DNA of 64,000 nucleotides from Naegleria gruberi (GCA_000004985.1 GG738875.1), one strand, 5' to 3'; shown: positions 3,801 through 43,921, counted from the stretch's first letter. The notes: generated by a model not told the origin, from the sequence alone. Made by a program: numbers and translations.

Positions 3801-6800
3801 ATGATGATTTGCTTTTGTTTACCAGTCATAACGAATGACTTTTCCAATAGAGGATCAAGCATAGGATCAATTTCTTCTTCCACATTTTCAATGATAAGTG
3901 GACGACCATTTGAAATGGCATCTTCAAGTTGATTACGGAAGTACTTGTCAGTCAATCTAACAATTAAGAGACCTTGTTTTTCAAACTTCTTCTTCAACCA
4001 GGCTAAACCTTGTCCTTGAGGATCAACCAACAAAGCCCACTTAGAGGACTTTGTCAACATGATAGCATTTTGAATTGAGTGGGAGTCAGTTGGTAAGCCT
4101 TCAAGATTCCATGCACCTATTTGAGCTTCAGTAGTCAACAAATCTACAATCTTATCCTTCTTTTCATTTTTATCTTCTTCTGTTACAGGAATATCTTTTT
4201 CTTTACAATCAGCATAGAAACATTTGGAGAGCAAAATCTTACGGAATTCACTGTTAAAAGGTCCACAGTAAGAAATAAAAGCACAAGCGAGTGCAACATC
4301 ACCAGTTAACTTTCTCAATCTATCAGAGAATTGTTTGGATTGAATACCCCATCTTTCACTTTCTCCGCCAAGAGATGAAATAAGACTGGTTGCTTGTTCC
4401 ATGAACTTTCTTGTCTTTTCAGCATCTTCTTCGAGAAGTTCCTTTTTTCTTGTTTCTTCTTCGAAAACTCTTTGCTTTTCTTCAAATTCAGCGATGACCT
4501 TATTCAATTCTTCCATCTTCTTATTCAGTTGTGCAGTAGCGATAGCAAGAGTTTCTTCAGCTTCTCTAAGTCTTTCTCTCTTTGGTCTAACTTCCTTTTC
4601 TACGTTGTGATATTCAGCCATAGCACGAACCCAAGTACACAAATTTGAAGCAGCTGAACTTGATGATTTGATGATATCATATGTAAAGAATGAGTAATTA
4701 ATATAAGGCATCAACAATTCTACAGTTTCATCTGTAATTTCATCTTGCTTAAATTGTTGGATACCTTTCAAGAAACCAGCGTCAGCAGTCATCTTTTGAG
4801 CGTTAGAATATGAGTCTTCAATTATGGCACCCAATTTTTCGTCATTAATAATTTTAACATCATTGATTGGGAATTGTCTCAAGATGAGAACACCATCAAA
4901 TACGGTTTTAATGGCTTGAGCAGGAACTGTATAGGCCTTGACAGTTTGAATGTCTTTTGGTTGAATTGAAGCAACAGCCTTTTCAGCTCTTTCCAGGGCT
5001 GGTTTAGCTTTTTCTAAATCTGCTAAAGCTTCCTTCTTTTGAATTTCAACCAAGTTATGCTCCTTTTCAATAATATCCTTTTCTTTTTCTACTTCAGTCT
5101 TCTTAGCCAATGTCTTGGTCTTGCTTTCGGAAACTTCTTTCATGATCTCTTCAGCTTTGAGTTTGGCTTCATCCAATTTCTTTTCCTTAATCTTCAACTC
5201 AATTTGAAGCTTTTCAACATCTTCCTTTGCTTCATGAAGTTTAGAGAGACCCATAGCAACGTTCTTAGCTTCTTTATCAATTTCAGCATACTTAGCTCTG
5301 TATACGTCCTTATACAACTGTATAAATGATAGGTAAGACTTTGGAGTTGTGTGGACTGCTCTTCTGAATCTTTGGAAGTATTCAGAGGCGACTTCATTAA
5401 TCTTATTGTGTACTGCAGCCATGTGTTTAATCAAACTCTTCTTGACTTCAGGTGTACAATGAATTTCATAATCATCCAAGAATTTCTTGGCAACACTTGT
5501 CAAAGCTTCCTCTGGCCATGGGAAGAACCAATTTACAGAACATCCACTGATAAGAGCAGGGAACTTCAAAGCTCTGCTTCTGAACTTCTCACTAACTGGT
5601 GAGAAGCACAATACAATATGCAAATTATCTCTAACTCTGTTGATAAAGAATCTGTACAAATTATCATAAGTATCATTTCTTCCAATAGTAGTTGGGTATA
5701 AACGTTTAGCAACCATTCTCAAATCGTTAATGATAGAATCAATTTCTTCTTTCATGAATAGACCAGAGACTTCTCCTGAAGATAAGATACTATTAATATA
5801 TTCAAGGAAAGTTTCATCTTTGATTTCGTTATCTGTGAAAATGAAACTGACTGGTTTTCCTTGCAAACCAGCAAGCTTGAACATTTCTCTTAAATCTTCG
5901 AAGAAGTTGTTAGCGTTATAAGTCTTGTGAAGAACAATTTGCTTGATTTCATAGCCTGCAATAAATGAAGAAAGTCTTGTTAATGATTGTTTTCCTGAAC
6001 CACCAACACCGACTAATAAAGCATTACCTCTTGGCATACTCAGAATTCTTGAAATACGAACCAAGTGTTTGAGAGCCATGTCGAAGAGAACCAAGTCCAA
6101 TTTTTTAATATGCTTTCTTTCACCATTGTAATTCTTCATGAATCCTTCAACTCTTTGTCTGAGAGATTCAATTGACTCAATAGGTTCATAAATCTTTGGA
6201 GCTTCTTCAACTACTTCATCAGTGTCCTCATCAACAATAGGATCTCTCAAGAAATTGACAAAGTAATAATTATCAACCTTAGCTAATTCTCTGCCAAAGT
6301 ACTTTTCAGCTGTCTTAACAATGGAATCATCAAACCAAATCTTGTCTTTGACATCATTCAATCTGTCTGAGAAAACTCTACCACATTCGTGTTTCCACAA
6401 TCCCATCAAAATTTGTGGAGTTTTAACAACATCTGAAGGACAGTTCATTAAACCTTGATAGACTCTTGATAAATCTCTCAAGTTGAAAATGTAGTGGAAC
6501 TTCTTTGGAGTTGGAAGCATCTTATCTTGAGTCATTCTCCAGAATTCAATAGTAGCTGGAGTAATGCTTGATGCAAGCTTTACCATTTCATCAGAGAATC
6601 TTGTAGTATTATATCTACCTCTGATGACAGAACCGAAGATTTGGTCAATAGATGCTACAGTAGGAAGTGTAATATTCAAAATAGAGAAGTGTCTCTTCAA
6701 TCTTTCAGGAATATCATTCTTACCACCACCTGGATGGGACATGGCAGCAATAAATTGCAAATCTTCAATATGAATAAATTCACCAATCTTAGTTAAACTG

Positions 6801-9800
6801 TAGAATCCCTTTTCTTCTACAAGTTGTCTTACAATTTCGTTTGTAACTTGATCTCCCCAAGCATTGATTTCTGGCATGTTAATATCGTCAACAAAGACTA
6901 CCATCTTCTTGTTTTGAGGTGGTCCGTAAACTCTGAATCTCTTTTCAATATTGTCTTGAATAGTGAATTGGAAGATGTTGTGTGTTGTTGCAGAAGAAAA
7001 GTTAATCTTCTTATACATCATTGTTTCAGGGTCCAAATTGTACAAGTAGTTTTCAATTGTAACAGTCTTTGCTGTACCAGAACCACCTGTGAACAAGATA
7101 TCCCTCTTTTGTTTAGCCAAGAGTTCAATGATATAGGTTGTTCTTACAGAATCTGAAGTAGGAACGTACAAGGTACTGAATTCAAGAACATCATTTTCAG
7201 GATAATTCCAAGCAGGAATAACAGCCTTCCAATTCTTCCACTTCTTAGATGCAGGATCAACGAAAAAGTCATAAATATTTTCATCTTCACCCATATCAGT
7301 TGGGAAAATGGTTGCCTTGGATTTGATATAATCACTGAATTGTTTTCTCGCCTTTGATTCCAACAAACCACCAATAGACCAAGCAAAGGAATACCAGAAA
7401 AGCATTTCAATATGTTGCTTGTCTAATTTGATTTCTCCCTTATTAGAGTGTTCTTGAATCAACTGTGTAATAATACTGAAACAGGTCATAACTTGATTGA
7501 CTCTAACAACATTCATCACAGACTTAAGCTCTTTCTTAATATAATCAACACCATTGTCAATATGAGTTGTAAATAATGTTCTGACAATAGTTGTTTCTTC
7601 TTCCTTGAACGGAGCGACTGGTACAGAGTCACCAGTTGAAATAGTTTCATTAACTCTTCCTGCGTATCCTTTCAATCTTGATTCTAAAACAGGAGCCCAA
7701 CCAAGAACGGATTCAGAAATATAAATTTGACCAGCTCTAGAAACAGTAGCAGGAGAGGCATTATTCAAGTTTTCGACTTCGAAACACATCTTAACATCTG
7801 GGGACATTGCTAATCTATCACCGTTAGCAAGAGTCAATAACTTGTTATCATCCAAAACAGTGTTCAAATTTTCAATCCAAATAGCATCAACAGGACCATC
7901 ACAATTGATCCAAATGTGTTGCTTTCTTTGTTTGTTTGCTTGTTTCCACAAGTCAGAGAAAATACCGTCAGTCCATTCGTTTGCTACTACATCAAGTTTA
8001 CCAAACATTTGATTAGCTGTAATGGCCTTTGGATTCATTCTAAGTTGTTTATATGTTTTCTCTGGATTGAGAACACTGAGTGTCTTCAATAATATAGAAT
8101 AACAAGCACTTTTACCTGAACTGGCAGCACCGACCACCATGATACCGTGACGAACCAAACAAGTTTCATATAATTGGATCACTTTTTCCACCCAAGGTCC
8201 ATGATTTTCAAAACCATTTTGTTTGATTTGTTGTTCAAGTTGCTTTTCAAGTTCTGGAAAACGTCTCTTTTCTGCAACAATTGAAGGGAACAAGTCTTCT
8301 ACAAGAGAATTGAACAAGCTAACGTCTTCAGCGACCAATTTAGAAGTGTTCATGTCTCTGAGAGTTCTCATGAGCAAGAAGTGTTCTGATTTACCAATGT
8401 TAGCTCTCATTGTTTCACCAGCAGTTCTCAAAACTGACAAAATATTTCTGAGACCAAAATCGTAGTGAGCTTGTTTTGAAAGCTGTTGTTCACAAAGTCT
8501 GTACAAGACATCGAACTTCTTTGATAATGGTTCGTTCTTCTTGTAACCAGCAGCAGCTAACTTGACTCTAATAATAATTCTTCTGTCAGGAACCATCATA
8601 GTGACACCTCTAAACAAAACCTTCAAGTTTTCTGGAAGTTCTTGACGTCCTTGATAACCAGGATTCATAGTAATAAACATGGCTGTCTTGTCATTCAATT
8701 TACATGGTTTACCATCTGTAAAAACGAATTTCTTTTTACCATCTCTCAAGGTTGACAGAATGGATTGGACTTGTTGAGCAACGACAGACAACACTTCAAG
8801 TTCAATACGATTGAATTCGTCGAAACAACCCCAAGAACCACTTTGAGCCAAACCTCTAAAGATTTTACCCATAGCTCTATAATCCATTTGATCTGAACAG
8901 TTAAAGACAACTACATATTTACCAAGAGTTCTACCCAAATCTTTAACAGTTTCTGTTTTACCTGTACCGGCTGGACCAGCTGGAGCACCACCTAACTTCA
9001 AACCGATGGCTTGAGAGAGGGTAAGATAACATCTGTCGGTCAAAGGTGTAATGACCAGTCTTTCCTTACAACCCAAATATTCATAACAATATTCTTGATC
9101 GATATCTGCAATAGAAACAATACAAGTATCTTGATCTGGTTTCCAATAGAATCTGGCTTGTTTTTGCCAATCAAAATTAATAGTGTCCTTAACTCTATCT
9201 CTTAAAAGTTCACCGAAAACGTCACGTTGGTGAACTTGAATTGTAATAAGAGTTTCAACCTTTGTTCTTTCCAAAGGAGTCAATTCTCTTGTTGTTAAGG
9301 TTGTAAGTTCATCAAGAATAGTTGAAATTTTAGCATGGGTATTAGACATTGCTCTCTTATCAGACTTGGCTGAATTCAAAGCATTTTCACATTGTACTGT
9401 CCACACGAATTGAATACCAAGAATAGTAACTTGAGCAGGATACTTTTCAATGAAACTAGTGAGTGACATTGTGTTACATTCTTCAGCAGCATCTCTGACA
9501 ATGAAACGAAGAGTTCTTTGCATTTCTTCTTCGAGTTTTTGTAACCAATCTTCAACGTTACCTGCAGCTACAACAGCATCATTAAGAGGAACAATTTCTC
9601 CTTCAGGGGATTGCATACTCAAAATCTTGTTGTCTTGTCTAGCATCGAAAGTAACCTTTGAAATAGAGTCGAAAATTGTAATCAAAGCAGGTTGAATAGC
9701 ATGAGGATCAGATGATTGAGACAAGATTTCCAACAAAGCAGTGTCAGAGTTGAAATAGAATCTTGGGAAAATATCTCTCTTTTGTTCCAAATAACCAGCC

Positions 9801-12800
9801 AAAGCCTTTTGACATTCTTCCAAACTGATTTTAAGAGCTGGCAACATCTTCAACATTTCATTATCAAAGCAGAAACGAATAACGTTTGGAGTAGCAACAG
9901 CCTTTTGTAAAATCTTGACCCAGTTCTTATCAATGTGACTGAATTTCTTGTCTTCATGTGGCAATTGTCTCTTAATATCACCACTTGCAAATACAGGCTC
10001 AAGATAAAGCCATTGAGCTTGAACTTGTCTCCAAGCTTGAATATTTTCAGTTACAGATGTAAGCTTTTGCATCCATCCAGAGGCTAATTCTCTGAATGGT
10101 TCCAAATACTTTGAACCCATGATACCACCCAAGTTCATTTGGGCTTCTTCAAGTTGTTCCATCAATTCTTGAGTTTCAGCACCCTTCAAGATAATAGGAC
10201 CACGGTGTTTGTATTCAGCGAAAGACAATTCTCTATCCTTCCATTCTTCAGTAAGCTTTTTCAACTTGTCTTCAATTTCTAATTCCTTACGAGCTGAGTT
10301 ACAAACATCTTCGACTTCTTCCTTACATGCAAGTAAATTAGCTTCCAAAATGTCTTTAAGTTTAAACACATCGTCTTCCTTCTTAAATTGCTTCTTTGTG
10401 AGGGCTTCCAAACGTTCCCAATGTCTTTCTCTCATAGATGGATTCTTAAGTTGATCCAACAATGGTTGTAATTCTAAGAAATCTTCAATAGTTTGTCTCA
10501 AATTTTCATAAGCCTCAATGCCTTTTGCAGCTTTCTTTAAAGAATTACATTTAGTAGCAAACTTGTTGACTTCATCAGTAATGGCTTGGAAATCAAGTTC
10601 AGACCACAATAACTCTCCATAACTACCAACTTGTTTCTTAACCTTAATGTATAAATCGTACAAGGTGTCGTATAACTTTAACATCTTTTTCATCTTTGCA
10701 AGATCTGGGTATTCTTGCATTGGCAATCCGAATAATTTTTCACCTTCTCTGTACACTTCATATTTTCTTTCTCTTTCAGCATACAGTCTTTGGAATTTGT
10801 TCAGTCTTTCTCTAGCTTCTTCAGGTGCAATATCAGGTACTGCAGGCCCATTAAGTGTAAAATCTTTACAGAATTGCTCGACATCGGTTTTAAAGAGCTT
10901 TACCTCAGAAATTAATCTTGTCTTGAACCCACTTTGAACCTTAGAAATAGTTTCGTTAACTTTACTGGCCAATCTAGTCAATTTCTCCCACTTGAAAGCC
11001 AGATCGTAAACTTCATCAATTTCTTCCTTAGGAACATTTACAGAGTACTTTTTCAAAATAGAATATCTGTCAGCAATTTTAGAGAAATCATATTCAATCA
11101 TTGCTTCCCTAGATCTAATATCCATAACAGTACCCATGACAAATCTCAAGTCTTCAAGGTTTGCAATTTCTTGAGATAATCTCTTTGTAGATTCATCCAT
11201 CATTGTCAAATAGTTGTTCAATTCTTCCTTTGCACTTTCGTGAAGGTTATTGGCATATTGAACTTTCCATTGAATAACTAGCTGGAGTATGGAATTCTTC
11301 AATCCTTCTGCATCCAAAAAGAATGGACCCACAATACTTGATGTCTCCATTTGGCCAATCTCATTTTCAAGAACTGTGTATTTGTTCAACTCCTTTTCAA
11401 AATCATCAAGAGTTGGCTTCTTATCAACACATTTATCAACAAACTTTTTGTAGGCTGTTTGTTTGTCTTCCTTCCAGAGATAGCTGTACTTTTCGTATTT
11501 AGCCATAAATTGCTTAATTTCTTTTTGTAATAAAGCACAAGCTCCACTAGATGTCATTACCAGTCTAATAACATCACAGTCTCTGGATACTTCTCTGTTG
11601 AAGTGAATCTCTGGTTTGCACCTCCATGGTTGGATTGCCTTTGGAGATCCTAAAACAGATTGAACAACTCTGTCAATAGACTCTTGAATTTCTTCAAGGT
11701 TAGGTTTGAGAATTACATCAGGAGCTGCAAGTTCAAAACCAATTTTGAAAATTGGATCACCATGTGTGTCCTTTCTTGTTCTGCTTCTAAAGTAATGCAA
11801 AGACTTTACGACAGAATTCAGTAAGTTTTCTAAAATTGTTCTATGGTAAAATTCTTTAAGTCGAGTCAACAAATCTGGAGTAATTGTTAGTTTTGTTTCC
11901 TCGAATGGAAAACCAGAAATTACTTCTAAAATATCCTCTACGGCTCTTTCTATTTCAATACTCTTATTGTTGAGCTGTTCAGATAATTCTTTTGAGTATT
12001 TGTCTTGTGTATCTACAATTTGTTCAAGAGTGGAATCTTCTCTTTCAGGGAGCAAGAAAAATCCAGTATTTGATATATCCTTCAAATTTTTGTCGATTCT
12101 TCCATCGATAATATCATTAACCTTAAGTAATACATCTTCTAACTTTTCCAGTGTCTTGTGAATTCTCTTTAAATAAACTGAAATATTCATAGAAGTCCAT
12201 GAAAGAGTTGTAACACCAGGATCAATTTTCTTCTCAAGCTCGTCAATATGTGGTTCAAGTAATGGCTTTACATCATCTTTAACCATAGAAAGAATTCTTG
12301 CTCTTTCCTTCAAAACAAAGGATAACTCGTTGTAATATCCTTTGTATTTTTGTTCTTGAAGGAGAACAGTTTTACCCACATCTGGGATTTCAACTCCAAG
12401 TCTCATTAACCATTTGGCTTCTCTAATGAGTTGAATTATTTCAATATCAAAGTTAACAAAGAGTCTATCTTCAACCTTAATAATCAAAGTTGCCAATAAA
12501 CCGTCCTTTGCCTTTTCAACATATTTCTTCCAAGCTTCCAACCATGAGGTTTCAAACTTGATTAAACCCATCAAAACCTTGTTGTATGTTTTGATAATCT
12601 TCTTTGATTCCTTACTTTGCATAATAGTTGGGATTTGTTGGAATTTAGTCATTGGCTCCTCTATTCTTCTCATAAGTTGTCTACACCAAATAACTTTTCC
12701 GGCAACGGGTGGGGCATTTCTTACCAATGGTGGTTTAACTTTGAATTTTTCATATAGCTTTTGAATGTTATCAAGTTGGAATCCATAGTTGTGGAAAATT

Positions 12801-14392
12801 ACTGTATACTTATTTTCCAATTCAGTTTGAAGAGATTCTCTTTTCAGAATTGATTTAAACTTTTTAAGAACTTCTAAAGCTTGTTCACTGCTTGAAATAT
12901 TTTCAAACCATGTATTGATGAAAACCTGTAAGTATTGTTCAAGGTGAACAACTTTCTTGTTAAAAGCCATATATTCCTTATCGAAAGCATTTCTTTGATA
13001 ATCAAGAAGATTGGATGATTTTCTCTTAATTTCATCAACATATCCGAAAAATTGAGAAATAAGTTCATCCATACCTTCAATGTTATTACTCTTTAGTGAA
13101 TGGAATTGATCAATTGTCAAAAACAATTCAATAAGGGTTTCTATTCTTCTACAGAATAATCTCAATTTACCAAAGATTTTCAATTCATCAAAATCAAATT
13201 CTCTTCCCTTAGTTTGTTGAAGCTTAGACTTTTCAGCAAAATAACATCTTTCATATTCTTCTTTCAAGTCAATACAAGTCTTCAAACCTGATAATAATTC
13301 AGTAGTGTCTTGATCCCAAAGACGTCCTCTGTTCTCAATGTTATATTTACAGTTTTGAATGATTTGAAGACTGATCATAACCAATAATTTCTCCATCTTT
13401 TCCTTTGAACTATAATATTTAGCTATATTATACATCATACTAATATTCTTAATTAAACTTGGTAAGATTTCAATAATATGGGATGGAAGGGAGGAATACA
13501 AAGGCTCAATATATTTTTCTAATGATGTTAAATATTTAACATTGTCCTTTGCTTCGTTAATGGCATCTGTTAATGCAATATCACAATCGGCCCATTCTTG
13601 TGGCATTGAATACAGTTTCAAAGCGGAAAGAATTGCCTTATATTCTTCTCTCTTTAATTGTTCCATTACACTGTTCAATTTTAAGTATCTATTCTTCCAG
13701 TGTTCAATTTCTGCTGTTGGACCTAGTTCGTTATCTGTTAACTTATTGTCTTCAATCACTCTTTGAATCTCTTGAACCCATATCTTTACCAAATTATCGT
13801 AATAGTTCATCAGATTAATGTTTTCTTTAGCCTCCATAATTGCTGTTGGATTGTTTGGGATAAGTCTTTCTTGTGGAGGTCTTGTGAGTGTAATTGTTGG
13901 TGATTTTGATGTAAGAGCTTCTCCTAGTTTATCCGACATTCTCTTTGTTGTTTGTAAGAACTCTTTTGCTTGTTCTGAAGATGATTTACCCCAATCCATT
14001 TCCTCTGCACTGAACAGTGGAATGTAAACTTGGCCAAAGACTGTGTGTAAATTGTCTATCACATTTCCTTCAATAACACCACAAACAAGTGAATCAACAA
14101 TTTGAGCTTCTTTTGCAGGTACTGCTGCATTATTTCTTCTAAGAATATACAATACTTTTGGTGCCTTGTAAGGAAGATCGCTTGTTGTAGTTTTTAAAGA
14201 GAGGATGAATTCCCTGTTTTTTTCCACTACCGAAATCAAAAGAACATGGCATTGTTCATCTCCGTTCATAAAAGTATCGATACTCTTTTCATTTTCCTCT
14301 AGAAATTGTTGTATTTGAAGGGCCTTAACCTGAGGGAAGGACTCTTCAACTCTATCAGAAACGTATTTAGCTCGAGTATCCCTTATGACCAT
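890..14392 (-). CDS. Axonemal dynein heavy chain of about 4,500 aa (two-headed, outer-arm or I1-like); single exon
   Basis: A continuous 13.5-kb ORF. AAA1 P-loop GPAGTGKTETVKDLGRTLG...FNCSDQMDY...WGCFDEFNRI. Further P-loops: GAASSGKS (AAA2), GGSGTAKT (AAA3), GVGGSGKQ (AAA4). Coiled-coil stalk and the C-terminal domain are present. Start chosen at the ATG 14392 (aaaacaATGgtc, MVIRDTRAKYV...). The track's 14476 start is a TTG inside an A-rich leader. Confidence 0.88.
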   Translation of the reverse strand: MVIRDTRAKYVSDRVEESFPQVKALQIQQFLEENEKSIDTFMNGDEQCHVLLISVVEKNREFILSLKTTTSDLPYKAPKVLYILRRNNAAVPAKEAQIVDSLVCGVIEGNVIDNLHTVFGQVYIPLFSAEEMDWGKSSSEQAKEFLQTTKRMSDKLGEALTSKSPTITLTRPPQERLIPNNPTAIMEAKENINLMNYYDNLVKIWVQEIQRVIEDNKLTDNELGPTAEIEHWKNRYLKLNSVMEQLKREEYKAILSALKLYSMPQEWADCDIALTDAINEAKDNVKYLTSLEKYIEPLYSSLPSHIIEILPSLIKNISMMYNIAKYYSSKEKMEKLLVMISLQIIQNCKYNIENRGRLWDQDTTELLSGLKTCIDLKEEYERCYFAEKSKLQQTKGREFDFDELKIFGKLRLFCRRIETLIELFLTIDQFHSLKSNNIEGMDELISQFFGYVDEIKRKSSNLLDYQRNAFDKEYMAFNKKVVHLEQYLQVFINTWFENISSSEQALEVLKKFKSILKRESLQTELENKYTVIFHNYGFQLDNIQKLYEKFKVKPPLVRNAPPVAGKVIWCRQLMRRIEEPMTKFQQIPTIMQSKESKKIIKTYNKVLMGLIKFETSWLEAWKKYVEKAKDGLLATLIIKVEDRLFVNFDIEIIQLIREAKWLMRLGVEIPDVGKTVLLQEQKYKGYYNELSFVLKERARILSMVKDDVKPLLEPHIDELEKKIDPGVTTLSWTSMNISVYLKRIHKTLEKLEDVLLKVNDIIDGRIDKNLKDISNTGFFLLPEREDSTLEQIVDTQDKYSKELSEQLNNKSIEIERAVEDILEVISGFPFEETKLTITPDLLTRLKEFYHRTILENLLNSVVKSLHYFRSRTRKDTHGDPIFKIGFELAAPDVILKPNLEEIQESIDRVVQSVLGSPKAIQPWRCKPEIHFNREVSRDCDVIRLVMTSSGACALLQKEIKQFMAKYEKYSYLWKEDKQTAYKKFVDKCVDKKPTLDDFEKELNKYTVLENEIGQMETSSIVGPFFLDAEGLKNSILQLVIQWKVQYANNLHESAKEELNNYLTMMDESTKRLSQEIANLEDLRFVMGTVMDIRSREAMIEYDFSKIADRYSILKKYSVNVPKEEIDEVYDLAFKWEKLTRLASKVNETISKVQSGFKTRLISEVKLFKTDVEQFCKDFTLNGPAVPDIAPEEARERLNKFQRLYAERERKYEVYREGEKLFGLPMQEYPDLAKMKKMLKLYDTLYDLYIKVKKQVGSYGELLWSELDFQAITDEVNKFATKCNSLKKAAKGIEAYENLRQTIEDFLELQPLLDQLKNPSMRERHWERLEALTKKQFKKEDDVFKLKDILEANLLACKEEVEDVCNSARKELEIEDKLKKLTEEWKDRELSFAEYKHRGPIILKGAETQELMEQLEEAQMNLGGIMGSKYLEPFRELASGWMQKLTSVTENIQAWRQVQAQWLYLEPVFASGDIKRQLPHEDKKFSHIDKNWVKILQKAVATPNVIRFCFDNEMLKMLPALKISLEECQKALAGYLEQKRDIFPRFYFNSDTALLEILSQSSDPHAIQPALITIFDSISKVTFDARQDNKILSMQSPEGEIVPLNDAVVAAGNVEDWLQKLEEEMQRTLRFIVRDAAEECNTMSLTSFIEKYPAQVTILGIQFVWTVQCENALNSAKSDKRAMSNTHAKISTILDELTTLTTRELTPLERTKVETLITIQVHQRDVFGELLRDRVKDTINFDWQKQARFYWKPDQDTCIVSIADIDQEYCYEYLGCKERLVITPLTDRCYLTLSQAIGLKLGGAPAGPAGTGKTETVKDLGRTLGKYVVVFNCSDQMDYRAMGKIFRGLAQSGSWGCFDEFNRIELEVLSVVAQQVQSILSTLRDGKKKFVFTDGKPCKLNDKTAMFITMNPGYQGRQELPENLKVLFRGVTMMVPDRRIIIRVKLAAAGYKKNEPLSKKFDVLYRLCEQQLSKQAHYDFGLRNILSVLRTAGETMRANIGKSEHFLLMRTLRDMNTSKLVAEDVSLFNSLVEDLFPSIVAEKRRFPELEKQLEQQIKQNGFENHGPWVEKVIQLYETCLVRHGIMVVGAASSGKSACYSILLKTLSVLNPEKTYKQLRMNPKAITANQMFGKLDVVANEWTDGIFSDLWKQANKQRKQHIWINCDGPVDAIWIENLNTVLDDNKLLTLANGDRLAMSPDVKMCFEVENLNNASPATVSRAGQIYISESVLGWAPVLESRLKGYAGRVNETISTGDSVPVAPFKEEETTIVRTLFTTHIDNGVDYIKKELKSVMNVVRVNQVMTCFSIITQLIQEHSNKGEIKLDKQHIEMLFWYSFAWSIGGLLESKARKQFSDYIKSKATIFPTDMGEDENIYDFFVDPASKKWKNWKAVIPAWNYPENDVLEFSTLYVPTSDSVRTTYIIELLAKQKRDILFTGGSGTAKTVTIENYLYNLDPETMMYKKINFSSATTHNIFQFTIQDNIEKRFRVYGPPQNKKMVVFVDDINMPEINAWGDQVTNEIVRQLVEEKGFYSLTKIGEFIHIEDLQFIAAMSHPGGGKNDIPERLKRHFSILNITLPTVASIDQIFGSVIRGRYNTTRFSDEMVKLASSITPATIEFWRMTQDKMLPTPKKFHYIFNLRDLSRVYQGLMNCPSDVVKTPQILMGLWKHECGRVFSDRLNDVKDKIWFDDSIVKTAEKYFGRELAKVDNYYFVNFLRDPIVDEDTDEVVEEAPKIYEPIESIESLRQRVEGFMKNYNGERKHIKKLDLVLFDMALKHLVRISRILSMPRGNALLVGVGGSGKQSLTRLSSFIAGYEIKQIVLHKTYNANNFFEDLREMFKLAGLQGKPVSFIFTDNEIKDETFLEYINSILSSGEVSGLFMKEEIDSIINDLRMVAKRLYPTTIGRNDTYDNLYRFFINRVRDNLHIVLCFSPVSEKFRSRALKFPALISGCSVNWFFPWPEEALTSVAKKFLDDYEIHCTPEVKKSLIKHMAAVHNKINEVASEYFQRFRRAVHTTPKSYLSFIQLYKDVYRAKYAEIDKEAKNVAMGLSKLHEAKEDVEKLQIELKIKEKKLDEAKLKAEEIMKEVSESKTKTLAKKTEVEKEKDIIEKEHNLVEIQKKEALADLEKAKPALERAEKAVASIQPKDIQTVKAYTVPAQAIKTVFDGVLILRQFPINDVKIINDEKLGAIIEDSYSNAQKMTADAGFLKGIQQFKQDEITDETVELLMPYINYSFFTYDIIKSSSSAASNLCTWVRAMAEYHNVEKEVRPKRERLREAEETLAIATAQLNKKMEELNKVIAEFEEKQRVFEEETRKKELLEEDAEKTRKFMEQATSLISSLGGESERWGIQSKQFSDRLRKLTGDVALACAFISYCGPFNSEFRKILLSKCFYADCKEKDIPVTEEDKNEKKDKIVDLLTTEAQIGAWNLEGLPTDSHSIQNAIMLTKSSKWALLVDPQGQGLAWLKKKFEKQGLLIVRLTDKYFRNQLEDAISNGRPLIIENVEEEIDPMLDPLLEKSFVMTGKQKQIIIQDKAIDYDDGFKLFLTTKIANPNFTPELFAKCNIIDFTVTMKGLEQQLLGYVIQQEKAELEEQREKILEDINGNQQVMADLEAQLLSKLSEESDKSLIEDEVLIAVLAQTKKQAAEIKEKLVNAKDTEERINKARMEYEDVAIRGSVLYFLIVEMSLVNPMYQTSLNQFLILFDRGIKTAAPAPVASQRIINIKESCTFIIYRYTSRGLFKRHKFLFLLLLTCKIQLREGKLDFEQFSTLLRGGSLLDLSKVRQKVDWLPDVNWLNVMSLFSIETFKQLPEKMHKNDKLWKKFYDEEKPEETKVPEYSNLTDFEKLLLIRSLREDRTILAAMQYIRSALGQKYLDVVPINLDNVWKESDNKTPFVCLLSPGSDPTSAIEGLARHHKKDVLAISMGQGQEPRATEYIQTGFSTGSWVLLQNCHLGLKFISLIEDMIKNAENIHPDFRIWVTSEPHPKFPIGLLQTSIKLTLEGDVGVKAGMKNAFEWVTQDMLDASKRPEWKPLIYTMCFLSSVVSERKKFGYLGWNIPYEFNFADLSASLMFMQNHFASIGDDIKKGSISWPTIRYMICDVHYGGKITDERDRQLFKTYGEKWLSPDVAKVEFKFYDGYTIPFVSAEKVITEVDKEQFVEFIEKQIPQIDNPEVFGLHPNADINYRTDESKSVLSTILDVQPKESAGGAGETREDNVFKKADEFLKGLPPDFKRDMVDSEIKKQGGFDRNSLNVFLSQEIDRLQKLIGMVRADLTNLKLAIDGAIIMSAGLSDILNNIYDGRVPDIWKKFSWESQTIGLWFNELDTRHDQLFKWLTEGRPNSFKLTGFYNPQGFLTAVQQEVARARGWALDDVVLKTEVTKMEEKDVIEPPSEGVYIHGLSLEGAGWDKASARLTESLPKILTCKLPVIHISAFAKDSNVAAANDKNKEKEKKKNSYTCPVYRNKNRSDLTFIFNVELNCLEDKSKWKLRGVALLGSTQ

Positions 14393-14811
14393 TGTTTTAT
14401 TTTTTTTTAAATTGTAGTTTTTTCTTGTAGGTAATACAACGAAGAATTGGCTGTTTTGGCGCGCAATTCTGCTCAAATTTCTGCTGTAGCTTTCTCACCT
14501 GAGACAACCCTTTTGAACTTTATGAGTCAAACAATAACGTGGTTTGATGTGGGTGTATTTCGAATTGTCAGCTTCATCATTTTCTATTTGATTTCAAAGA
14601 TTAAGGGTGACATCCTTGAAATAAATTATTTCATCATCCAAATATGTCAAAAAGATCCAAGTGTAAATGTTCGTTACCGAATGCATTGATCCGAAATCGT
14701 TACGTATTAAAACAAACTGGAAATCAATAATAGAACTGGACTAACCGTTTCTCAATAAAAACTCAACAAAAAAAAATCGTAAATTATTATCTGTAGCATC
14801 ATTAATGAAAA
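14393..14811. promoter_or_regulatory. Divergent intergenic region between the dynein heavy chain (minus) and the STPGR gene (plus); putative bidirectional promoter
   Basis: A 419-bp AT-rich spacer between two divergently oriented start codons. Both ATGs are preceded by A-runs. No convincing ORF lies inside (the 14447 + ORF starts at TTG). Confidence 0.3.
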
Positions 14812-16473
14812 ATGAGCATAACGAGTGATGTGATTGATGCTGAATCTCTCTTATCGGATGAAGTCTTCGAGAATGAAACAATGAAAAGGGAAATAGAAGA
14901 GGGCAGATTAATTCCTGACCCTCTTAATGCTTCTCTAATTTCTGACAATCTTATGGACCTTAATAATACTAACAGCACAATTAGAAGACAACACCGTTCA
15001 TCATCAAGACAAAAATCCTTCAATTCTTCAATTAACCGATCAAGTATATCAAGAGCAGCAACACCTTCTATACACTCATTTCCGAGTAGATTTTCTGTTG
15101 AGAGTCCTGTTATTTCGTTTTCAAAAGGAGAACGTAAATACACCTATCTAAATCAAAGAGTTGACACTCCTGGTCCAATATATGAATCCATTCCAAAATC
15201 TGTGTCATCAAGCTTCTCCTTCCCAAAAGGAAAGAGATTTGTTGAAGAAGAATTAAAAATACTCCAACAAGCTCAAAAACCTCCTCCAACTGCCTATAAT
15301 CCAAAAGATCACATCAAGTACAGAACTGATCCATCTTTCAGTTTTGGTTCGAGAACTCCGACCCAAGAATACAGATCAGATTCACCAGGACCAATTTACA
15401 ATCCAACTGATGTTCCTTCAAAGAGATTTTCAAAATCTTCAACAACATTTGGTGCTGGAGAAAGATCTCTTAAAATGAGTGATGGGCGAAGTGGGTCTCC
15501 TCCACCAGGAGCTTATAATCCTTCCTTAATGGATTCTAAAAGGAATATTTCTTTTTCAATTTCAAAGAAAGAAGGTAGGTTTTAAATGAGGTTTAAAACA
15601 AAACATTTTTTAGAAAATTATATTTACTTTGGAGATAAATTAAGTGCAAATAAGGAGGTGAGTATTAATTGGAATTTATTTATTAAAGAAAATGAATAGT
15701 CAATGAGAGTACCTGGACCAGTTTATGATCCATCCTATCGATTGTCAATTACATCATCACCTTCATTCTCTTTTGGAAGAAGAACACCACTGCCCAGTGA
15801 TCAAGTACTTCTTGAACATCCTGGGTTAACAGATTACAACAAACAATTCGTTTCTCATTCTTTTTCCCTTCAGGGCAAAGATAGAGAAGTTGACCCAAAT
15901 ATTACATATAATGCTCCAAGAGCAAGATTTTTGGGAGATCAATTTTTGAACGAGAACCTGGGAAGAGCATCTCCAGGACCAAAGTATAATATAACTCAAA
16001 GTTTTGTCATTCCATCCAAGAGACATGTTGAGGAAGATCACATCCTGACATTCAAAGCTAAAGAAAAGAAAAAGAAGGACAAACCGATTCCTACACAAGT
16101 TTATCCTGGTTATAGTATTTCCAAGGCTTCTGCTCAAATTACTGAAAGTCCTGGGTGTGTTTACACTCCAAAAACAGATTTCTCGTCACGAGTCCCAAGA
16201 GTATGCAGCCCTGTAATGAAAGTAGCAAAACCAGTGGATAACAGAAAAGCTCCTGAAATTTATCCTCAATTAAGAAATCCAAATCTTACAGCACTTTCAA
16301 ATGTCCCAACTTCAACAGTACCAAAGTTCATAAGAACTGGAAATACTGTTGGTGTTAGAACTCCTCCTCTGATTTCCCATTCTCCTGGTCCAGTTTATAA
16401 AGTTGACTGGGAATCATTGGAAAAGAATGCAAAGAAAGGTTTACCTGGAGGTAAGTTTGGAGGCCTTTCGTAA
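14812..16473 (+). CDS. Flagellar STPGR / ODF3 (SHIPPO)-like sperm-tail PG-rich repeat protein. Proposed model: join(14812..15574,15614..15657,15700..16473), about 526 aa
   Basis: Two adjacent same-strand ORFs both carry repeated SPGPxY / PGPGAY / SFSFG motifs typical of STPGR (ODF3/SHIPPO) proteins. No single intron joins them in frame. A GTAGGT donor at 15575, a 44-nt micro-exon (ENYIYFGDKLSANKE), a GTGAGT donor at 15658 and an aatAG acceptor at 15698-15699 do join them in frame. Alternative reading: two tandem genes (14812..15585 and 15703..16473). Confidence 0.55.
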
Positions 16474-16623: not shown

Positions 16624-17858
16624 TTACCAGATCACACCCTTTCCAAAAATTACAATAAGGCCAACAACAAGAACAGTGAGCAATATTAAACCAAGAATGA
16701 TCCACATCATTTTTGATCCTGTTTTACGGAGCTTGTTACTCTCTGTTGATCATTCCAATAAAAAATTAAACTTGAACGCAAAAATAAACTTACCTTTGAG
16801 ACTTTCCACACCTCTTTCCACATTGTCCTTTGATGTAATGACATTGGTGTGAATAGTGTCCAACATTGGATCTTGTTCATCTACAAGACTAGAAAAAGAA
16901 TGGAACAAGTGATTCAATTCATGATATTCACTTTGATAAGTTTTCAAATCTTCATACTCTTCCAATGCAATTTTCATTTCTACATTCAAAGTGCTATCTT
17001 GCCAAGAAACAAGAGCATTTTCTTGTAATTCTTGATCAACAGTAGTTTGCTTTTGTTGAGTAGTGTGCAATAATGGTTGATCTTCAGATTGAATTTCTTC
17101 TTCCTCATCAAAGTGATCCATTGGTGTTTGGTGATGGGCAGCAAATTGTTCTTGTTTTTGTTTAGTTTGTTGAGCAATCCATTCCTTATCACGTCTAATA
17201 ACATCCTTAAGAACAGTGATAGTTTTAGTAAGATCATTCTTTACACGATTATATTTAACCATGGTTTCATGTTGAGTATTCATTGAGGATGAATTAGTTT
17301 CAGTGGAAGAACTCAATCCAGATTCCATTAATAATCTGCTTTCATTACCAATCTTTGACCCAATTCTATTGGAAATCTTTTTCAAATCATTAACTTCTGA
17401 TGTGCACCATTGACGAATTGATCTATTAAATTATTTCAATCATTAATATTCATCATTATTTCAATTAGAATATTGAAAAATTCCATATTTCCTTACCTAA
17501 TCTTTTTAGTAATATCATTTCCACCAACACGAAGAGAAACATCACCATGATTAAAAGATGAGTCCGATCCTGAATTATTGTATGAAGAAATGGCCACTTG
17601 TTGTGCTCTCTGATTCGACAATTGTTTGTATTGTTCCACTTGTTTAGACAAGTTAGTAACTCTCAGAACAAACTCCTCAACCGAGTCATTATTTGAACGT
17701 TGGAAGGAGTTGAAGTTTTCATTTTCCTTGCTATTGTTTGTTCCAAGGTTATTGCTGCCTGTTGTGGTGGCGTTTCTTTTTTGTTGATTCAAAGTTTTGG
17801 CGCGTTGATTTGTACTTGCTCCAACACTAGGAACATTTCCCCACGATAAAGAAGACAT
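16624..17858 (-). CDS. Syntaxin-like Qa-SNARE with C-terminal TM anchor. Model: join(complement(17497..17858),complement(16794..17422),complement(16624..16742)), about 369 aa
   Basis: Exon 1 runs from ATG 17858 to ...KKI AG, then GTAAGG. A 74-nt intron spans 17423..17496. Exon 2 carries a heptad SNARE motif (...LVDEQDPMLDTIHTNVITSKDNVERGVESLKG) and ends in G, then GTAAGT. A 51-nt intron spans 16743..16793. Exon 3 encodes ESNKLRKTGSK followed by the TM helix MMWIILGLILLTVLVVGLIVIFG and a stop. The track start at 17385 is a TTG. Confidence 0.55.
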
Positions 17859-25478: not shown

Positions 25479-27134
25479 TTAAAACAATTCTGTTGATGTC
25501 AACTTTGAACCGCCAGTAACACCTTCAATCAAGTGTTTAAGACGAGTCTCCGAAGAACGTGTTGTTGAAATAATTTCTTCTCTGTTAAATCTTTCTACAG
25601 GTGTATTTTCCAAGATGTCACTCAACTTTTCTGTAACTCTTTCCAAATCTTCTTGCAAATATTCGAACAAGTTCTTTTCTTGACCATCCTCCAAATAATA
25701 TCCGTATACATAAGTATATTTCAAATTACCTCTGCATTCAATAAGAGTGTTCACTGCTTTTTGAATGTATTCTACATCAACCCATGAGCTATACTTATTC
25801 ATTTGTGTCAATTCTCTCATCTTTTCTTCAGTCTTTTCACGTAATTGTCTTTCGAATTTTTGTGACTTGTCGTGGTTGGCATATCTGGTGAAGTAGTGCA
25901 TATATTTTTCAAGAGCAGTACGAGCTGATTCTCTTTCATCTTCGTGCAACTTCTTCTTCAAATCTTCTGGTTGATACTTGTTACATTTATAATAACCACC
26001 AGTTTCACTTCCGTGAGTTGACCAAACATCCATACAAACCCAACAAAATTCGTATTTGCATTGAGAACATGTCATGTGGTTACAACCACCATTCTTTTCA
26101 ATAGAACGATTACATTTTGGACAATCCTATTTGAAAAAAATATAAGTGAACTTTGTAAAGTTCCTACATACCTTTGTGTTAGCAGTCAACCAAGTTGCTG
26201 TTTCTGATTCGTCTTGTTCTTTCTTCTTCCAAGCTTTTAATTGAGCACATGATGCAGGAACGTGAGCTTCACAAGAACACTTGAAACAGAACTTTTGATG
26301 ACATCCTCCGCATTGAACTGCTTCAACAGTAGTTTCTGGACAATAAACAGCTCTACCACAATCAGCAGTAGGACACCACTTAATTCTTGGATTATCTTCA
26401 ACAAAACTTCTCACTAAATATTTAGAATATGTCTTGTAACTATCTGCTGGCACCAATTCTTTGACAAGGGCTTCAATAATCAATGTTGTACATCCTCTTT
26501 CCAAACAACTTGCTGTGAGACAAGTATTACCATTATTAATACTAGTTATTAAATGTTGACGCCAACAATCTTGACAGAAATAGTGTTTGCAAGCCATTGC
26601 TAACATATTTGAACCATCATAGGTATCATAACAAACACTGCATTCATATTCTTTTCCTGGTACTCCTTGATAAACTTTAAAGTCATTGATATTAATGTTG
26701 GCTTTCTTTATCACACGGTCCTTATTTTCAAAAAAGTCATTCCAAAGTTTTTCCTTGTTCCAATCATAGCTTCTAAGTAAAATACCACAAGCTCCTACAG
26801 GAACACCCAACACAGTAGAAACTTCACTAACAAGTTCTTGTTGTTGTGCCATTAATTGTTCAGGATCAAGAGTGATGAATTGAATTTCCTTTGCAGCCAT
26901 TGGATTATCTTCGAGAGGATCTGTTGGAGTTAGAATTTCCAAATCATCTTCATCACCATCAAATGGATCATCTTTTGTTGGCATTGGTGAAGCATCCACA
27001 AGTTGAGCATATAATTCCTCCCTTGTAACACCCATATCAGCTAATTCTTCTTCTGTAAGTAAATCAATTTCTTCTCTAGTTAGGGTGGTATCTTCACCAT
27101 CCATAATATCAATATCTTCATCCATATCGGACAT
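25479..27134 (-). CDS. Ariadne-type RBR E3 ubiquitin ligase. Model: join(complement(26172..27134),complement(25479..26126)), about 536 aa
   Basis: Acidic N-terminus, then RING1 (CSVCYDTY...CKHYFCQDCW), IBR (CPTADCGRAV...CGGCHQKFCFKC) and RING2 (DCPKCNRSIEKNGGCNHMTCSQCKYEFCWVCMDVW), then the Ariadne C-terminal helical domain. RING2 is split by a 45-nt intron (26127..26171, GTATGTAGG...AAATAG) that joins the two track ORFs in frame. Confidence 0.8.
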
Positions 27135-42300: not shown

Positions 42301-43921
42301 GAATGTTGAACACATTTTAGAAAAACTTGAAAAGGATAAGGTTCATGATGAATTTAGACTCTGGTTAACAACTGAAGTTACTCCAAAATTCCCTATTGGT
42401 ATTCTTCAACGTTCTCTTAAGGTTGTCACAGAGCCTCCAAACTCTTTGCAACTTAACATGAAATCAACATTTTCTAATATTTCTGATCCAGAGTTAGATG
42501 AATGTCACCACAAATCTTTCAGACCATTAGTTTATGTTCTGTCTTATTTCCATGCTGTTATCCAAGAAAGAAGAAAGTATGGTAAAATTGGTTGGAATAT
42601 TCCATATGATTTCAACAAGTCTGATTTTGATGTCAGCTTCAGTCTTATTAGAACATATTTGAATAAGGCATCAATGTATAATGATCCAATTCCATGGGAC
42701 AGTCTCAAGTACCTTGTTGGTGAAGCTATGTATGGTGGTAGAGTTACAGACAAGTTTGACAGAAGAGTTCTTACTACATATCTCAATGAATTTATGGGTG
42801 ACTTCTTGTTTGATACCTTCCAACCTTTCCGTTTCTACGAAGATGAAAGTGTTTGTTATGAGTTACCACCAATGGAAAGAGAAAAGCTTATCGGAAAACA
42901 AAATATGATTGTTCCACTTGCTGTAGAAGATTTCTCTGAATTTATTGAGAGGAACGTTAAGCTTACAAACTCTCCAAGCGTTTTTGGTTTGCATCCTAAT
43001 GCAGAAATTGGTTACTTGACCAATTCTACATCTAATTTGTGGAGTGATCTCATATCTTTACAAATTGGTGTATCTTCTCATGGTGGTAAAGGAACTGGTG
43101 ATGAATATATCAAATCAGCCCTCAGCATTATCCCAGAACCATTTGATAAGGAAGAAATTCAATCAAAGATTCTTCAAAAGTCAAGCAAGCTCACTCCAAT
43201 TAATGTAGTCTTACTTCAAGAAATTGATAGATGGAATGCTCTAGTAGCAGTTATGAAGAGATCATTAATTGATTTGCAAAAGGCTTTGGCTGGTGAAATT
43301 GGTATGAGTGAAGAACTTGAAAATTTGAGTAATTCCATTAATATTGGTATAGTTCCTCAACTCTGGAAGCAAATGGCACCACCAACAAGATTGAATTTAT
43401 CTTCATGGTTAGAACATTTCAAGGAAAGATATAGTCAATATGTTGATTGGATTAAGTATGGTGAAGATCCTGTTGTTATTTGGTTGAGTGGTTTGCATGA
43501 ACCAGTTTCCTACATCACTGCTCTTATTCAAATGACATGTAAGAAATACAAATGGCCTCTCGATCGTACAACTATTACAACTAGAGTTACAGAGTACAGA
43601 GCCTCACATCAAGTCAAAGAAAAGCCTCAAGATGGTTGTTATGTGCGAGGTTTATTCTTGGAAGGAGCTGCTTGGGACTTGAAGAATAGATGTCTTAAAA
43701 CACAAAATCCAAAACAATTGAGAGAAGAACTTCCTATTCTTGAAATTATTCCAACAGAAAACTCCAAAGTCAAATTACAAAATACTTTCAATGCACCTGT
43801 TTATTATACTCCAGATAGAAATGATGGTGGTAATAAGGGATTGGTATTTGAAGCTAATCTCCAAACTGATGAACACGAAAGTATTTGGACCTTACAAGGT
43901 GTTGCAGTAACAATGACTTAA
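30396..43921 (+). CDS. Axonemal dynein heavy chain of about 4,446 aa (inner-arm-like). Model: join(30396..30722,30771..30863,30910..31410,31453..31627,31677..43921)
   Basis: Four short 5' introns of 48, 46, 42 and 49 nt with GTAAGT, GTAAGC, GTATGT and GTATGT donors. They join the track ORFs 30396.., 31009.. and 31709.. in frame. The N-terminal DHC_N1 signature is present (SMMNAIRMVWVISRYYNTDKRM). AAA1 P-loop GPAGTGKTESVKDLAKSLA...FNCGEGLDY...WGCFDEFNRI. AAA2-4 P-loops GETQGGKT, GSSGTAKS, GVGGSGKQ. Stalk and C-terminal domain are present. The final 12.2 kb is intron-free. Confidence 0.85.

What the first reader, a model, noticed from the sequence alone, without database searches (positions are those of the whole stretch)
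15575..15699. Predicted 44-nt micro-exon needed to join the two STPGR ORFs
No single GT..AG intron can join the ORFs 14812..15585 and 15703..16473 in frame. Using the GTAGGT donor at 15575, a 44-nt exon 15614..15657 (ENYIYFGDKLSANKE), the GTGAGT donor at 15658 and the aatAG acceptor at 15698 gives one 526-aa STPGR protein. The alternative is two tandem STPGR genes only 117 bp apart.
Basis: inference. Interest (0 to 1): 0.5.

Follow-up and report, generated by a model that had tools for sequence, protein, structure and literature searches.

The report
Small conserved exon joins two ORFs
The two open reading frames are one three-exon Naegleria gruberi gene for a sperm-tail-type (SHIPPO/STPG) repeat protein, joined through a 44-base exon that sister species also have, so this is an ordinary gene-model refinement that adds seven residues to the database protein.

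Summary
The window is Naegleria gruberi. ORFs 14812..15585 and 15703..16473 are one gene. Orthologues in N. fowleri (560 aa), N. lovaniensis (558 aa) and Willaertia magna (461 aa) span both halves.

In N. lovaniensis, whose annotation is RNA-seq-guided, the segment is a separate exon of exactly 44 nt with the same intron phases (1 and 0). In N. fowleri it is 41 nt. Willaertia keeps only intron 1. The introns are 39 and 42 nt, which is normal for this window (others are 42, 45, 51 and 74 nt).

Two corrections:
- The claim that no single GT..AG intron can join the ORFs in frame is false. Intron 15575..15709 does, but it deletes conserved residues.
- The gene is already annotated as NAEGRDRAFT_68853 (XP_002675856.1, 519 aa). 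That model uses a 23-nt micro-exon with a GAG acceptor at 15634 and lacks ENYIYFG.

No transcript data could be obtained. This is ordinary biology and of low interest.

The parts
14812..15574 (+). Exon 1 of the SHIPPO/STPG-repeat gene (ATG at 14812). It ends with the first base of a split codon (phase 1).
   Evidence: ORF. The start MSIT.. matches MSTT.. of the orthologues. An in-frame stop lies just upstream, at 14806-14808. Of six differences from a 99.2%-identical strain, five are synonymous and one is I>V.
15575..15613 (+). Intron 1, 39 nt: GTAGGT...TTTTTTAG. Its length is a multiple of 3 and it contains the in-frame TAA at 15583-15585.
   Evidence: An intron lies at the same position and phase in N. 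lovaniensis (56 nt), N. fowleri (84 nt) and Willaertia magna (44 nt). Two of the 11 strain differences fall here, and 15611 T>C keeps a YAG acceptor.
15614..15657 (+). Micro-exon, 44 nt. Together with the last base of exon 1 it encodes ENYIYFGDKLSANKE.
   Evidence: The peptide is conserved in the orthologues. It is a separate exon of 44 nt in N. lovaniensis and 41 nt in N. fowleri. Nucleotide identity to N. lovaniensis is 28/44, equal in both halves (13/21 and 15/23). Chance level is 6e-5.
15633..15634 (+). Alternative AG (context ctttggAG) used by the existing RefSeq/JGI model XP_002675856.1. It gives a 60-nt intron 1 and a 23-nt micro-exon 15635..15657.
   Evidence: The P0007 sequence reads ..SKKE|DKLSANKE|SMRVPGP... 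It has a 7-residue gap against all orthologues. The -3 base is G, which none of the other Naegleria/Willaertia acceptors read here has.
15658..15699 (+). Intron 2, 42 nt: GTGAGT...AATAG. Its length is a multiple of 3, and its last three bases are the in-frame TAG. Phase 0.
   Evidence: An intron lies at the same position and phase in N. lovaniensis (54 nt) and N. fowleri (65 nt), but not in Willaertia. The RefSeq model P0007 uses the same intron.
15700..16473 (+). Exon 3 (SMRVPGP...GKFGGLS) with the stop TAA at 16471-16473.
   Evidence: ORF. The C-terminus GKFGGLS is conserved in the orthologues. The partial model P0001 begins at exactly this residue.
14477..14811 (.). Spacer of about 335 nt between the head-to-head dynein heavy chain gene and this gene; a presumed shared promoter region (inference).
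   Evidence: The same divergent arrangement occurs in N. lovaniensis, N. fowleri, Willaertia magna and a metagenomic N. gruberi-like strain.
890..14476 (-). Neighbouring axonemal-type dynein heavy chain gene, an uninterrupted ORF of about 4,500 codons. It is context, not part of the finding.
   Evidence: all dynein motor domains plus PF25007 DYH2-5-8_CC.

Best explanation
One Naegleria gruberi gene (locus NAEGRDRAFT_68853) with three coding exons: 14812..15574, 15614..15657 and 15700..16473. Two very short GT-AG spliceosomal introns of 39 and 42 nt are removed. Each intron has a length divisible by three and carries an in-frame stop codon, so unspliced RNA would yield only the 257-aa N-terminal half. 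The spliced mRNA encodes a 526-aa protein built of SHIPPO/STPG 'PGP-x-Y ... FSFG' repeats, the family of ODF3/CIMAP1 and STPG2, which are found in ciliary doublet microtubules. It is therefore most likely a flagellar axoneme-associated protein made when the amoeba turns into a flagellate. It may be co-regulated with the divergently transcribed axonemal dynein heavy chain next to it. Shown: single-gene status, the coding nature of the 44-nt segment, and conservation of intron positions. Inferred: actual use of the 15613 acceptor in N. gruberi RNA, flagellar function, and the shared promoter.
For: The organism was identified from near-identical N. gruberi proteins. The orthologues P0010/P0002 (N. 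fowleri, 560 aa), P0003 (N. lovaniensis, 558 aa) and P0004 (Willaertia, 461 aa) cover both ORFs as one protein, with 51, 49 and 32% identity. At the junction they read KKE-DFTFFGDKLSHHKD-AYRTPGP, KKD-VDFIFFGDKLSNHKD-AYRTPGP and REE-DKLYFNNELSCKGK-YSPAP. Willaertia has intron 1 only, at 44 nt. The N. lovaniensis genes were predicted with BRAKER1 using RNA-seq (PMC6125883). The heptapeptide ENYIYFG scores 21 against VDFIFFG, which 6e-5 of windows reach. The acceptor at 15613 is TAG behind a T6 run. In the 99.2%-identical strain it is CAG. Very short introns are normal here. A 45-nt intron at 26171..26127(-) is confirmed by a gapless alignment of the joined product to ARIH2. There are also a 42-nt intron at 28344..28385 and introns of 51 and 74 nt in the syntaxin gene. 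N. fowleri workers set the minimum intron length to 30 bp (PMC8296547). Family: PF07004 scores 26.3 bits against a cutoff of 20, and all 5 aligned members match. The profile hits ODF3 from a sperm doublet-microtubule entry, 8snb, at E=1.1e-5, and weakly hits STPG2 (8g2z) and CIMAP1A (8otz, 8iyj). Synteny with the dynein heavy chain holds in four species.
Against: There is no N. gruberi transcript evidence. The exact 526-aa product is absent from the 15-billion-protein collection, and neither spliced junction was found in metagenome contigs. The only full-length N. gruberi model on record (P0007, 519 aa) uses a different intron-1 acceptor, at 15634, and I could not establish whether ESTs support it. 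A 39-nt intron is the shortest seen here. The N. lovaniensis and N. fowleri models are themselves predictions, although the N. lovaniensis one is RNA-seq-guided. The flagellar role rests on family resemblance and gene neighbourhood only.
Confidence: 0.82

Rival explanations
1. The existing RefSeq/JGI model is right. Intron 1 is 60 nt (15575..15634), the micro-exon is only 23 nt (15635..15657), and the protein is 519 aa without ENYIYFG. A weaker version is that both acceptors are used, giving 526- and 519-aa isoforms that differ by 21 nt in frame.
For: This is the model deposited as XP_002675856.1 / D2VIZ6. It is in frame. A branch-like ATTTAC lies 8-9 nt upstream of that AG. A 60-nt intron is closer than 39 nt to the published median of about 80 bp for N. 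lovaniensis.
Against: It deletes 7 residues that all three orthologues retain, with a conserved aromatic pattern. The 21 nt it treats as intron are as conserved against N. lovaniensis as the rest of the exon (13/21 vs 15/23). The acceptor is GAG, whereas every other acceptor read here is TAG, CAG or AAG. The same GGAG occurs inside the orthologous exons because it encodes F-G-D. The AG at 15613 is the first AG downstream of the TTTAAAAC branch-like site.
Confidence: 0.12
2. A single 135-nt intron (15575..15709) joins the two ORFs and skips the 44-nt segment, giving a 508-aa product.
For: It is in frame, has no stop and uses the same good GTAGGT donor. It restores a ..VPGPVYDP.. repeat start.
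Against: It removes 18 residues (ENYIYFGDKLSANKESMR) that are conserved in all orthologues. The acceptor is again GAG (atgagAG). It leaves the strong GAG|GTGAGT donor at 15658 and the conserved intron-2 position unexplained.
Confidence: 0.02
3. There are two separate tandem STPGR genes 117 bp apart, or a gene split by mutation (a pseudogene).
For: Each ORF starts with ATG and is about 256 codons. ORF-only gene callers on the metagenome contigs call them separately. ATTAAA occurs at about 15681.
Against: The orthologues are single proteins in three other species. The stops lie exactly inside segments bounded by consensus splice sites at conserved intron positions. Strain differences in both halves are almost all synonymous, so both halves are under purifying selection. 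ORF2's Met is not conserved: the orthologues have AYRTPGP where N. gruberi has SMRVPGP.
Confidence: 0.02

Closest known systems
N. lovaniensis C9374_005807 (558 aa) and N. fowleri FDP41_005430 (560 aa), the orthologous genes
   Same: The protein is collinear over 93% of the query, with 49-51% identity. The head-to-head dynein heavy chain neighbour is the same. Two introns sit at the same positions and phases, around a micro-exon of 44 nt (N. lovaniensis) or 41 nt (N. fowleri).
   Different: Their introns are longer (54-84 nt against 39 and 42 nt). They have a third intron (SPG|PIY) that N. gruberi lacks. Their N-termini are longer and His/Asn-rich.
N. gruberi RefSeq model XP_002675856.1 / NAEGRDRAFT_68853 / UniProt D2VIZ6 (519 aa)
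   Same: It is the same locus, with the same exon 1, the same intron-1 donor, the same intron 2 and the same exon 3. It already joins the two ORFs through a micro-exon.
   Different: It uses the AG at 15634 rather than the one at 15613, so its micro-exon is 23 nt instead of 44 nt and the protein lacks ENYIYFG.
SHIPPO / sperm-tail PG-rich repeat proteins (Pfam PF07004): ODF3/CIMAP1A and STPG2 of ciliary doublet microtubules
   Same: The protein has repeated PGPxxY ... FSFG units. The Pfam match is above the curated cutoff. The profile matches ODF3 in 8snb at E=1.1e-5, and matches STPG2 (8g2z) and CIMAP1A (8otz, 8iyj) weakly.
   Different: It is about twice as long as ODF3/CIMAP1 (about 250-290 aa). 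Similarity is confined to the repeat units. One-to-one orthology with any animal or ciliate member was not shown, and localisation in Naegleria is untested.
Short stop-containing 3n introns under intron-definition splicing, as described for Paramecium and other short-intron eukaryotes (own knowledge: Jaillon et al. 2008)
   Same: Both introns have lengths divisible by three and carry in-frame stops. So do the 42-nt and 45-nt introns elsewhere in the window.
   Different: Only a handful of introns were looked at here, and no genome-wide statistic was computed.

Membership tests
Internal coding micro-exon flanked by U2-type GT-AG introns | GT donor and AG acceptor at both flanking introns, with consensus-like context | tested here: met
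   The sites are aag|GTAGGT..ttttttAG| and gag|GTGAGT..aatAG|. Their contexts match the other introns in the window.
Internal coding micro-exon flanked by U2-type GT-AG introns | Splicing restores one uninterrupted reading frame | tested here: met
   The spliced CDS is 526 codons with no internal stop.
Internal coding micro-exon flanked by U2-type GT-AG introns | The encoded peptide is conserved in orthologues | tested here: met
   Shown (p about 6e-5 for the disputed 7 codons).
Internal coding micro-exon flanked by U2-type GT-AG introns | Intron positions and phases are conserved in related genomes | tested here: met
   Both introns are conserved in N. lovaniensis and N. fowleri. Only intron 1 is conserved in Willaertia.
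Internal coding micro-exon flanked by U2-type GT-AG introns | Spliced transcripts are observed in the organism itself | not testable with these tools
The exact product is not in the collection. The junction strings are absent from metagenome contigs. The Logan and ENA contigs L004 and L006 are genomic metagenome DNA.
SHIPPO / STPG repeat proteins (PF07004) | Match to the Pfam repeat model above its gathering score | tested here: met
   The joined protein scores 26.3 bits against a cutoff of 20. All 5 members of alignment A1 match, with a best E of 2.3e-8.
SHIPPO / STPG repeat proteins (PF07004) | Sequence relationship to structurally characterised axonemal members (ODF3/CIMAP1, STPG2) | tested here: inconclusive
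   The profile hits ODF3 (8snb) at E=1.1e-5, but over about 75 residues of repeat only. STPG2 scores 0.002 and CIMAP1A 0.02. The single-sequence search gave E=0.37.
SHIPPO / STPG repeat proteins (PF07004) | Localisation to the flagellar axoneme, and induction during flagellate differentiation | not testable with these tools
   The only evidence is the conserved neighbourhood with an axonemal-type dynein heavy chain. No paper mentions the locus tag.
Two independent tandem genes | Orthologues also occur as two separate proteins | tested here: not met
   All three orthologues are single polypeptides spanning both ORFs.

The most novel reading that the evidence does not exclude
N. gruberi may use both intron-1 acceptors (15613 and 15634, 21 nt apart and both in frame), giving isoforms with and without the aromatic heptapeptide ENYIYFG. 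Alternatively, it may retain the two stop-containing 3n introns in amoebae and splice them only during the switch to the flagellate form, gating production of this flagellar-type protein after transcription.
Probability: 0.08. Interest if true: 0.3.

Novelty: already known. Interest (0 to 1): 0.15.

Why it matters
The effect is mainly on annotation quality. The RefSeq/UniProt protein for NAEGRDRAFT_68853 probably lacks seven conserved residues because a weak GAG acceptor was chosen over a TAG acceptor that gives a 39-nt intron. The case also shows that Naegleria gene models must allow introns below 40 nt and exons of about 40 nt. The conserved head-to-head pairing with an axonemal dynein heavy chain makes the gene a reasonable candidate flagellar protein for the Naegleria differentiation system. 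Nothing here challenges current understanding.

Tried and rejected
- Single-intron joins were enumerated. They are in frame but delete conserved residues, so I rejected them.
- Transcript evidence was sought four ways, none of which gave anything.
  - The exact-sequence look-up found neither the 526-aa nor the 508-aa product.
  - The contig look-ups for P0001, P0002 and P0007 were not on record.
- The Logan contig L004 first looked like a possible unspliced transcript, because it starts 69 nt upstream of the ATG. It ends in Illumina adapter and belongs to the metagenome run ERR1078381 / PRJEB11402. That run also gave a 12.3-kb genomic contig, L006. L004 is therefore genomic and says nothing about splicing.
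- The C-terminal tail of the partial model P0001 was searched for in the window and not found. That model comes from a 1,095-nt scaffold and is irrelevant to the junction.
- A single-sequence PDB search gave only E=0.37. The profile search was needed.
- The literature search for the locus tag returned nothing.

Full report
**What is at the coordinates**

The window is AT-rich (34% GC) and comes from Naegleria gruberi. ORF2 is identical to N. gruberi proteins on record. ORF1 (14812..15585, 257 aa) and ORF2 (15703..16473, 256 aa) lie on the + strand in the same reading frame, 117 nt apart.
- aag|GTAGGT, with G at 15575
- ttttttAG, ending at 15613
- gag|GTGAGT, starting at 15658
- aatAG, ending at 15699

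Joining 14812..15574 + 15614..15657 + 15700..16473 gives an open 526-codon CDS that reads ..SISKKE-ENYIYFGDKLSANKE-SMRVPGPVYDP...

**What was wrong in the observation**

One search lists several that do, without internal stops. The most plausible are 15575..15709 (135 nt, same donor, product ..SKKEVPGPVYDP.., 508 aa) and 15579..15707 (129 nt). Frame arithmetic therefore does not force a micro-exon. The question has to be settled by other evidence.

**Homology settles it**

A search with the joined protein found one orthologue each in N. fowleri (560 aa), N. lovaniensis (558 aa) and Willaertia magna (461 aa). Each covers both halves of the query as one polypeptide. That rules out two tandem genes.

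At the junction the orthologues read:

| Species | Junction sequence |
|---|---|
| N. fowleri | SSKKE-DFTFFGDKLSHHKD-AYRTPGPIYDP |
| N. lovaniensis | SSKKD-VDFIFFGDKLSNHKD-AYRTPGPVYDP |
| Willaertia magna | LREE-DKLYFNNELSCKGK-YSPAPVVYTP |

**Gene structure in the relatives**

I fetched the orthologous loci and mapped the annotated proteins back to the DNA.

| Species | Intron 1 | Micro-exon | Intron 2 |
|---|---|---|---|
| N. lovaniensis | 56 nt, ..AAAGACG\|GTATGT.. | 44 nt | 54 nt |
| N. fowleri | 84 nt | 41 nt | 65 nt |
| Willaertia magna | 44 nt, same position and phase | fused to the next exon | absent |

- The N. lovaniensis micro-exon is TTGACTTTATATTTTTTGGAGACAAATTAAGCAACCACAAGGAT. Exon 3 then starts GCTTATCGA...
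- The N. lovaniensis annotation was made with BRAKER1 using RNA-seq (PMC6125883).
- In a DNA alignment of the four loci the micro-exon aligns (TTTGGAGA[TC]AAA[TC]TAAG) and the introns do not.
- N. lovaniensis and N. fowleri have a third intron that N. gruberi lacks, and Willaertia has a different second intron. Intron turnover has occurred in this gene, but intron 1 is old.

**The gene is already annotated, slightly differently**

The 90% cluster of ORF2 contains P0007 = XP_002675856.1 / EFC43112.1 / NAEGRDRAFT_68853 / UniProt D2VIZ6, 519 aa. This model uses the same exon 1 end, the same intron 2 and the same exon 3. It places the intron-1 acceptor at ctttggAG (15634), which gives a 60-nt intron, a 23-nt micro-exon and ..SKKE-DKLSANKE-SMRVPGP...

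1. All orthologues keep the heptapeptide with its aromatic pattern.
2. ENYIYFG scores 21 (BLOSUM62) against VDFIFFG. Only 8 of 127,954 seven-codon windows in this window's six frames reach that score, and 8e-5 of random 21-mers of intron composition do.
3. Nucleotide identity to N. lovaniensis is the same in the disputed 21 nt (13/21) as in the undisputed 23 nt (15/23).
4. The 15613 acceptor is TAG behind six T's, and in a 99.2%-identical strain it is CAG. The 15634 acceptor is GAG, a type not seen among the other acceptors read here, which were TAG, CAG or AAG.
5. The 15613 AG is the first AG after the branch-like TTTAAAAC.

The GGAG at 15634 is also present inside the orthologous exons, simply because it encodes Phe-Gly-Asp.

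**Are 39- and 42-nt introns credible here?**

Yes. The same window holds several comparable introns.

| Location | Length | Gene | Notes |
|---|---|---|---|
| 26171..26127 (-) | 45 nt | Ariadne-type RBR E3 ligase | Removing it gives a product that aligns without a gap across the junction to human ARIH2, E=3e-67 |
| 28344..28385 (+) | 42 nt | Sel1-repeat gene | |
| 16793..16743 (-) | 51 nt | Syntaxin | |
| 17496..17423 (-) | 74 nt | Syntaxin | |

The donors of these four introns are aag|GTAAGA, aag|GTATGT, aag|GTAAGT and tag|GTAAGG.

From the literature:
- The mean N. gruberi intron is 203 bp (PMC8296547).
- The N. lovaniensis median is 80 bp (PMC6125883).
- N. fowleri workers set the minimum intron length to 30 bp after inspecting gene models (PMC8296547).

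Both introns of the finding, and the 42- and 45-nt introns, have lengths divisible by three and carry in-frame stops.

**Population evidence**

A metagenome (ERR1078381, PRJEB11402) contains an N. gruberi-like strain 99.2% identical over 1,349 nt (L004, L006).
- Of 11 differences, 2 lie in the 39-nt intron 1 and none in the micro-exon or intron 2.
- Of the 8 differences in exons 1 and 3, all but one (I>V) are synonymous.
- Both halves are therefore under purifying selection. These contigs are genomic DNA and say nothing about splicing.

**What the protein is**

The joined protein matches Pfam PF07004 (SHIPPO / sperm-tail PG-rich repeat) above the curated cutoff, at 26.3 against 20 bits. All aligned orthologues match as well. 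A profile of the orthologue alignment hits solved chains as follows:
- ODF3 in the sperm doublet-microtubule entry 8snb, at E=1.1e-5
- STPG2 (8g2z), weakly
- CIMAP1A (8otz, 8iyj), weakly

Similarity is limited to the repeat units, so I file the protein in the repeat family, not as an orthologue of any one of these.

The gene sits head to head, about 335 nt away, with an uninterrupted axonemal-type dynein heavy chain gene. That pairing is kept in all four species. A flagellar role and a shared promoter are reasonable inferences, not results.

**What could not be done**

No N. gruberi transcript data were reachable, and no paper mentions the locus tag. The choice between the 15613 and 15634 acceptors, and any alternative use of both, needs RNA-seq or RT-PCR.

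**Verdict**

The stated reason, that no single intron works, is wrong, and the two-gene alternative is refuted. This is an ordinary small exon in a short-intron genome, already represented in the databases for this species in a shorter form and for its sister species in the same form. Interest is low.

Noticed in passing
window 890..14476 (-) and 31640..43918 (+): The window holds two dynein heavy chain genes, each a single uninterrupted ORF of about 4,500 and 4,093 codons. The first carries the axonemal DYH2-5-8 coiled-coil domain.
   Followed up: partly
window 14477..14811; L001, L005, L002/L003, L006: The head-to-head pairing of the dynein heavy chain gene and the SHIPPO-repeat gene, a few hundred nt apart, is conserved in N. 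gruberi, N. lovaniensis, N. fowleri, Willaertia magna and a metagenomic strain. This suggests a shared bidirectional promoter for flagellar genes.
   Followed up: partly
window 28344..28385 (+) and 26171..26127 (-): Two more very short introns (42 and 45 nt) have lengths divisible by three and contain in-frame stops. They lie in a Sel1-repeat gene and an Ariadne-type RBR E3 ligase gene. The second is confirmed by a gapless alignment to ARIH2.
   Followed up: partly
window 16743..16793 (-) and 17423..17496 (-): The syntaxin/SNARE-like gene downstream on the opposite strand has introns of 51 and 74 nt. Its last exon encodes only the transmembrane tail.
   Followed up: no
window 16451 (G|GTAAGT, 7 codons before the stop): A consensus-looking donor sits inside the conserved C-terminal codons (..PGGKFGGLS). 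The partial RefSeq model XP_002667959.1 (P0001, on a 1,095-nt scaffold) splices there to a 50-residue tail that is not found anywhere in this window. It is probably an artefact of a small duplicate scaffold.
   Followed up: partly
L001 about 11476..11527; L005 about 7521..7575; L002 about 7086..7131: There is intron turnover in the orthologues. N. lovaniensis and N. fowleri share a third intron at SPG|PIY that N. gruberi lacks. Willaertia lacks intron 2 and has another intron elsewhere.
   Followed up: partly
L002 and L003 (Willaertia magna, two contigs): The identical 461-aa protein is encoded on two different Willaertia contigs. In one of them the neighbouring dynein gene is called in fragments. 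These are probably haplotigs or a duplication.
   Followed up: no
L004, L006 (ERR1078381 / PRJEB11402 metagenome): A public metagenome contains an N. gruberi-like organism 99.2% identical to this window. One Logan contig ends in untrimmed Illumina adapter that was translated into the called protein P0009.
   Followed up: yes
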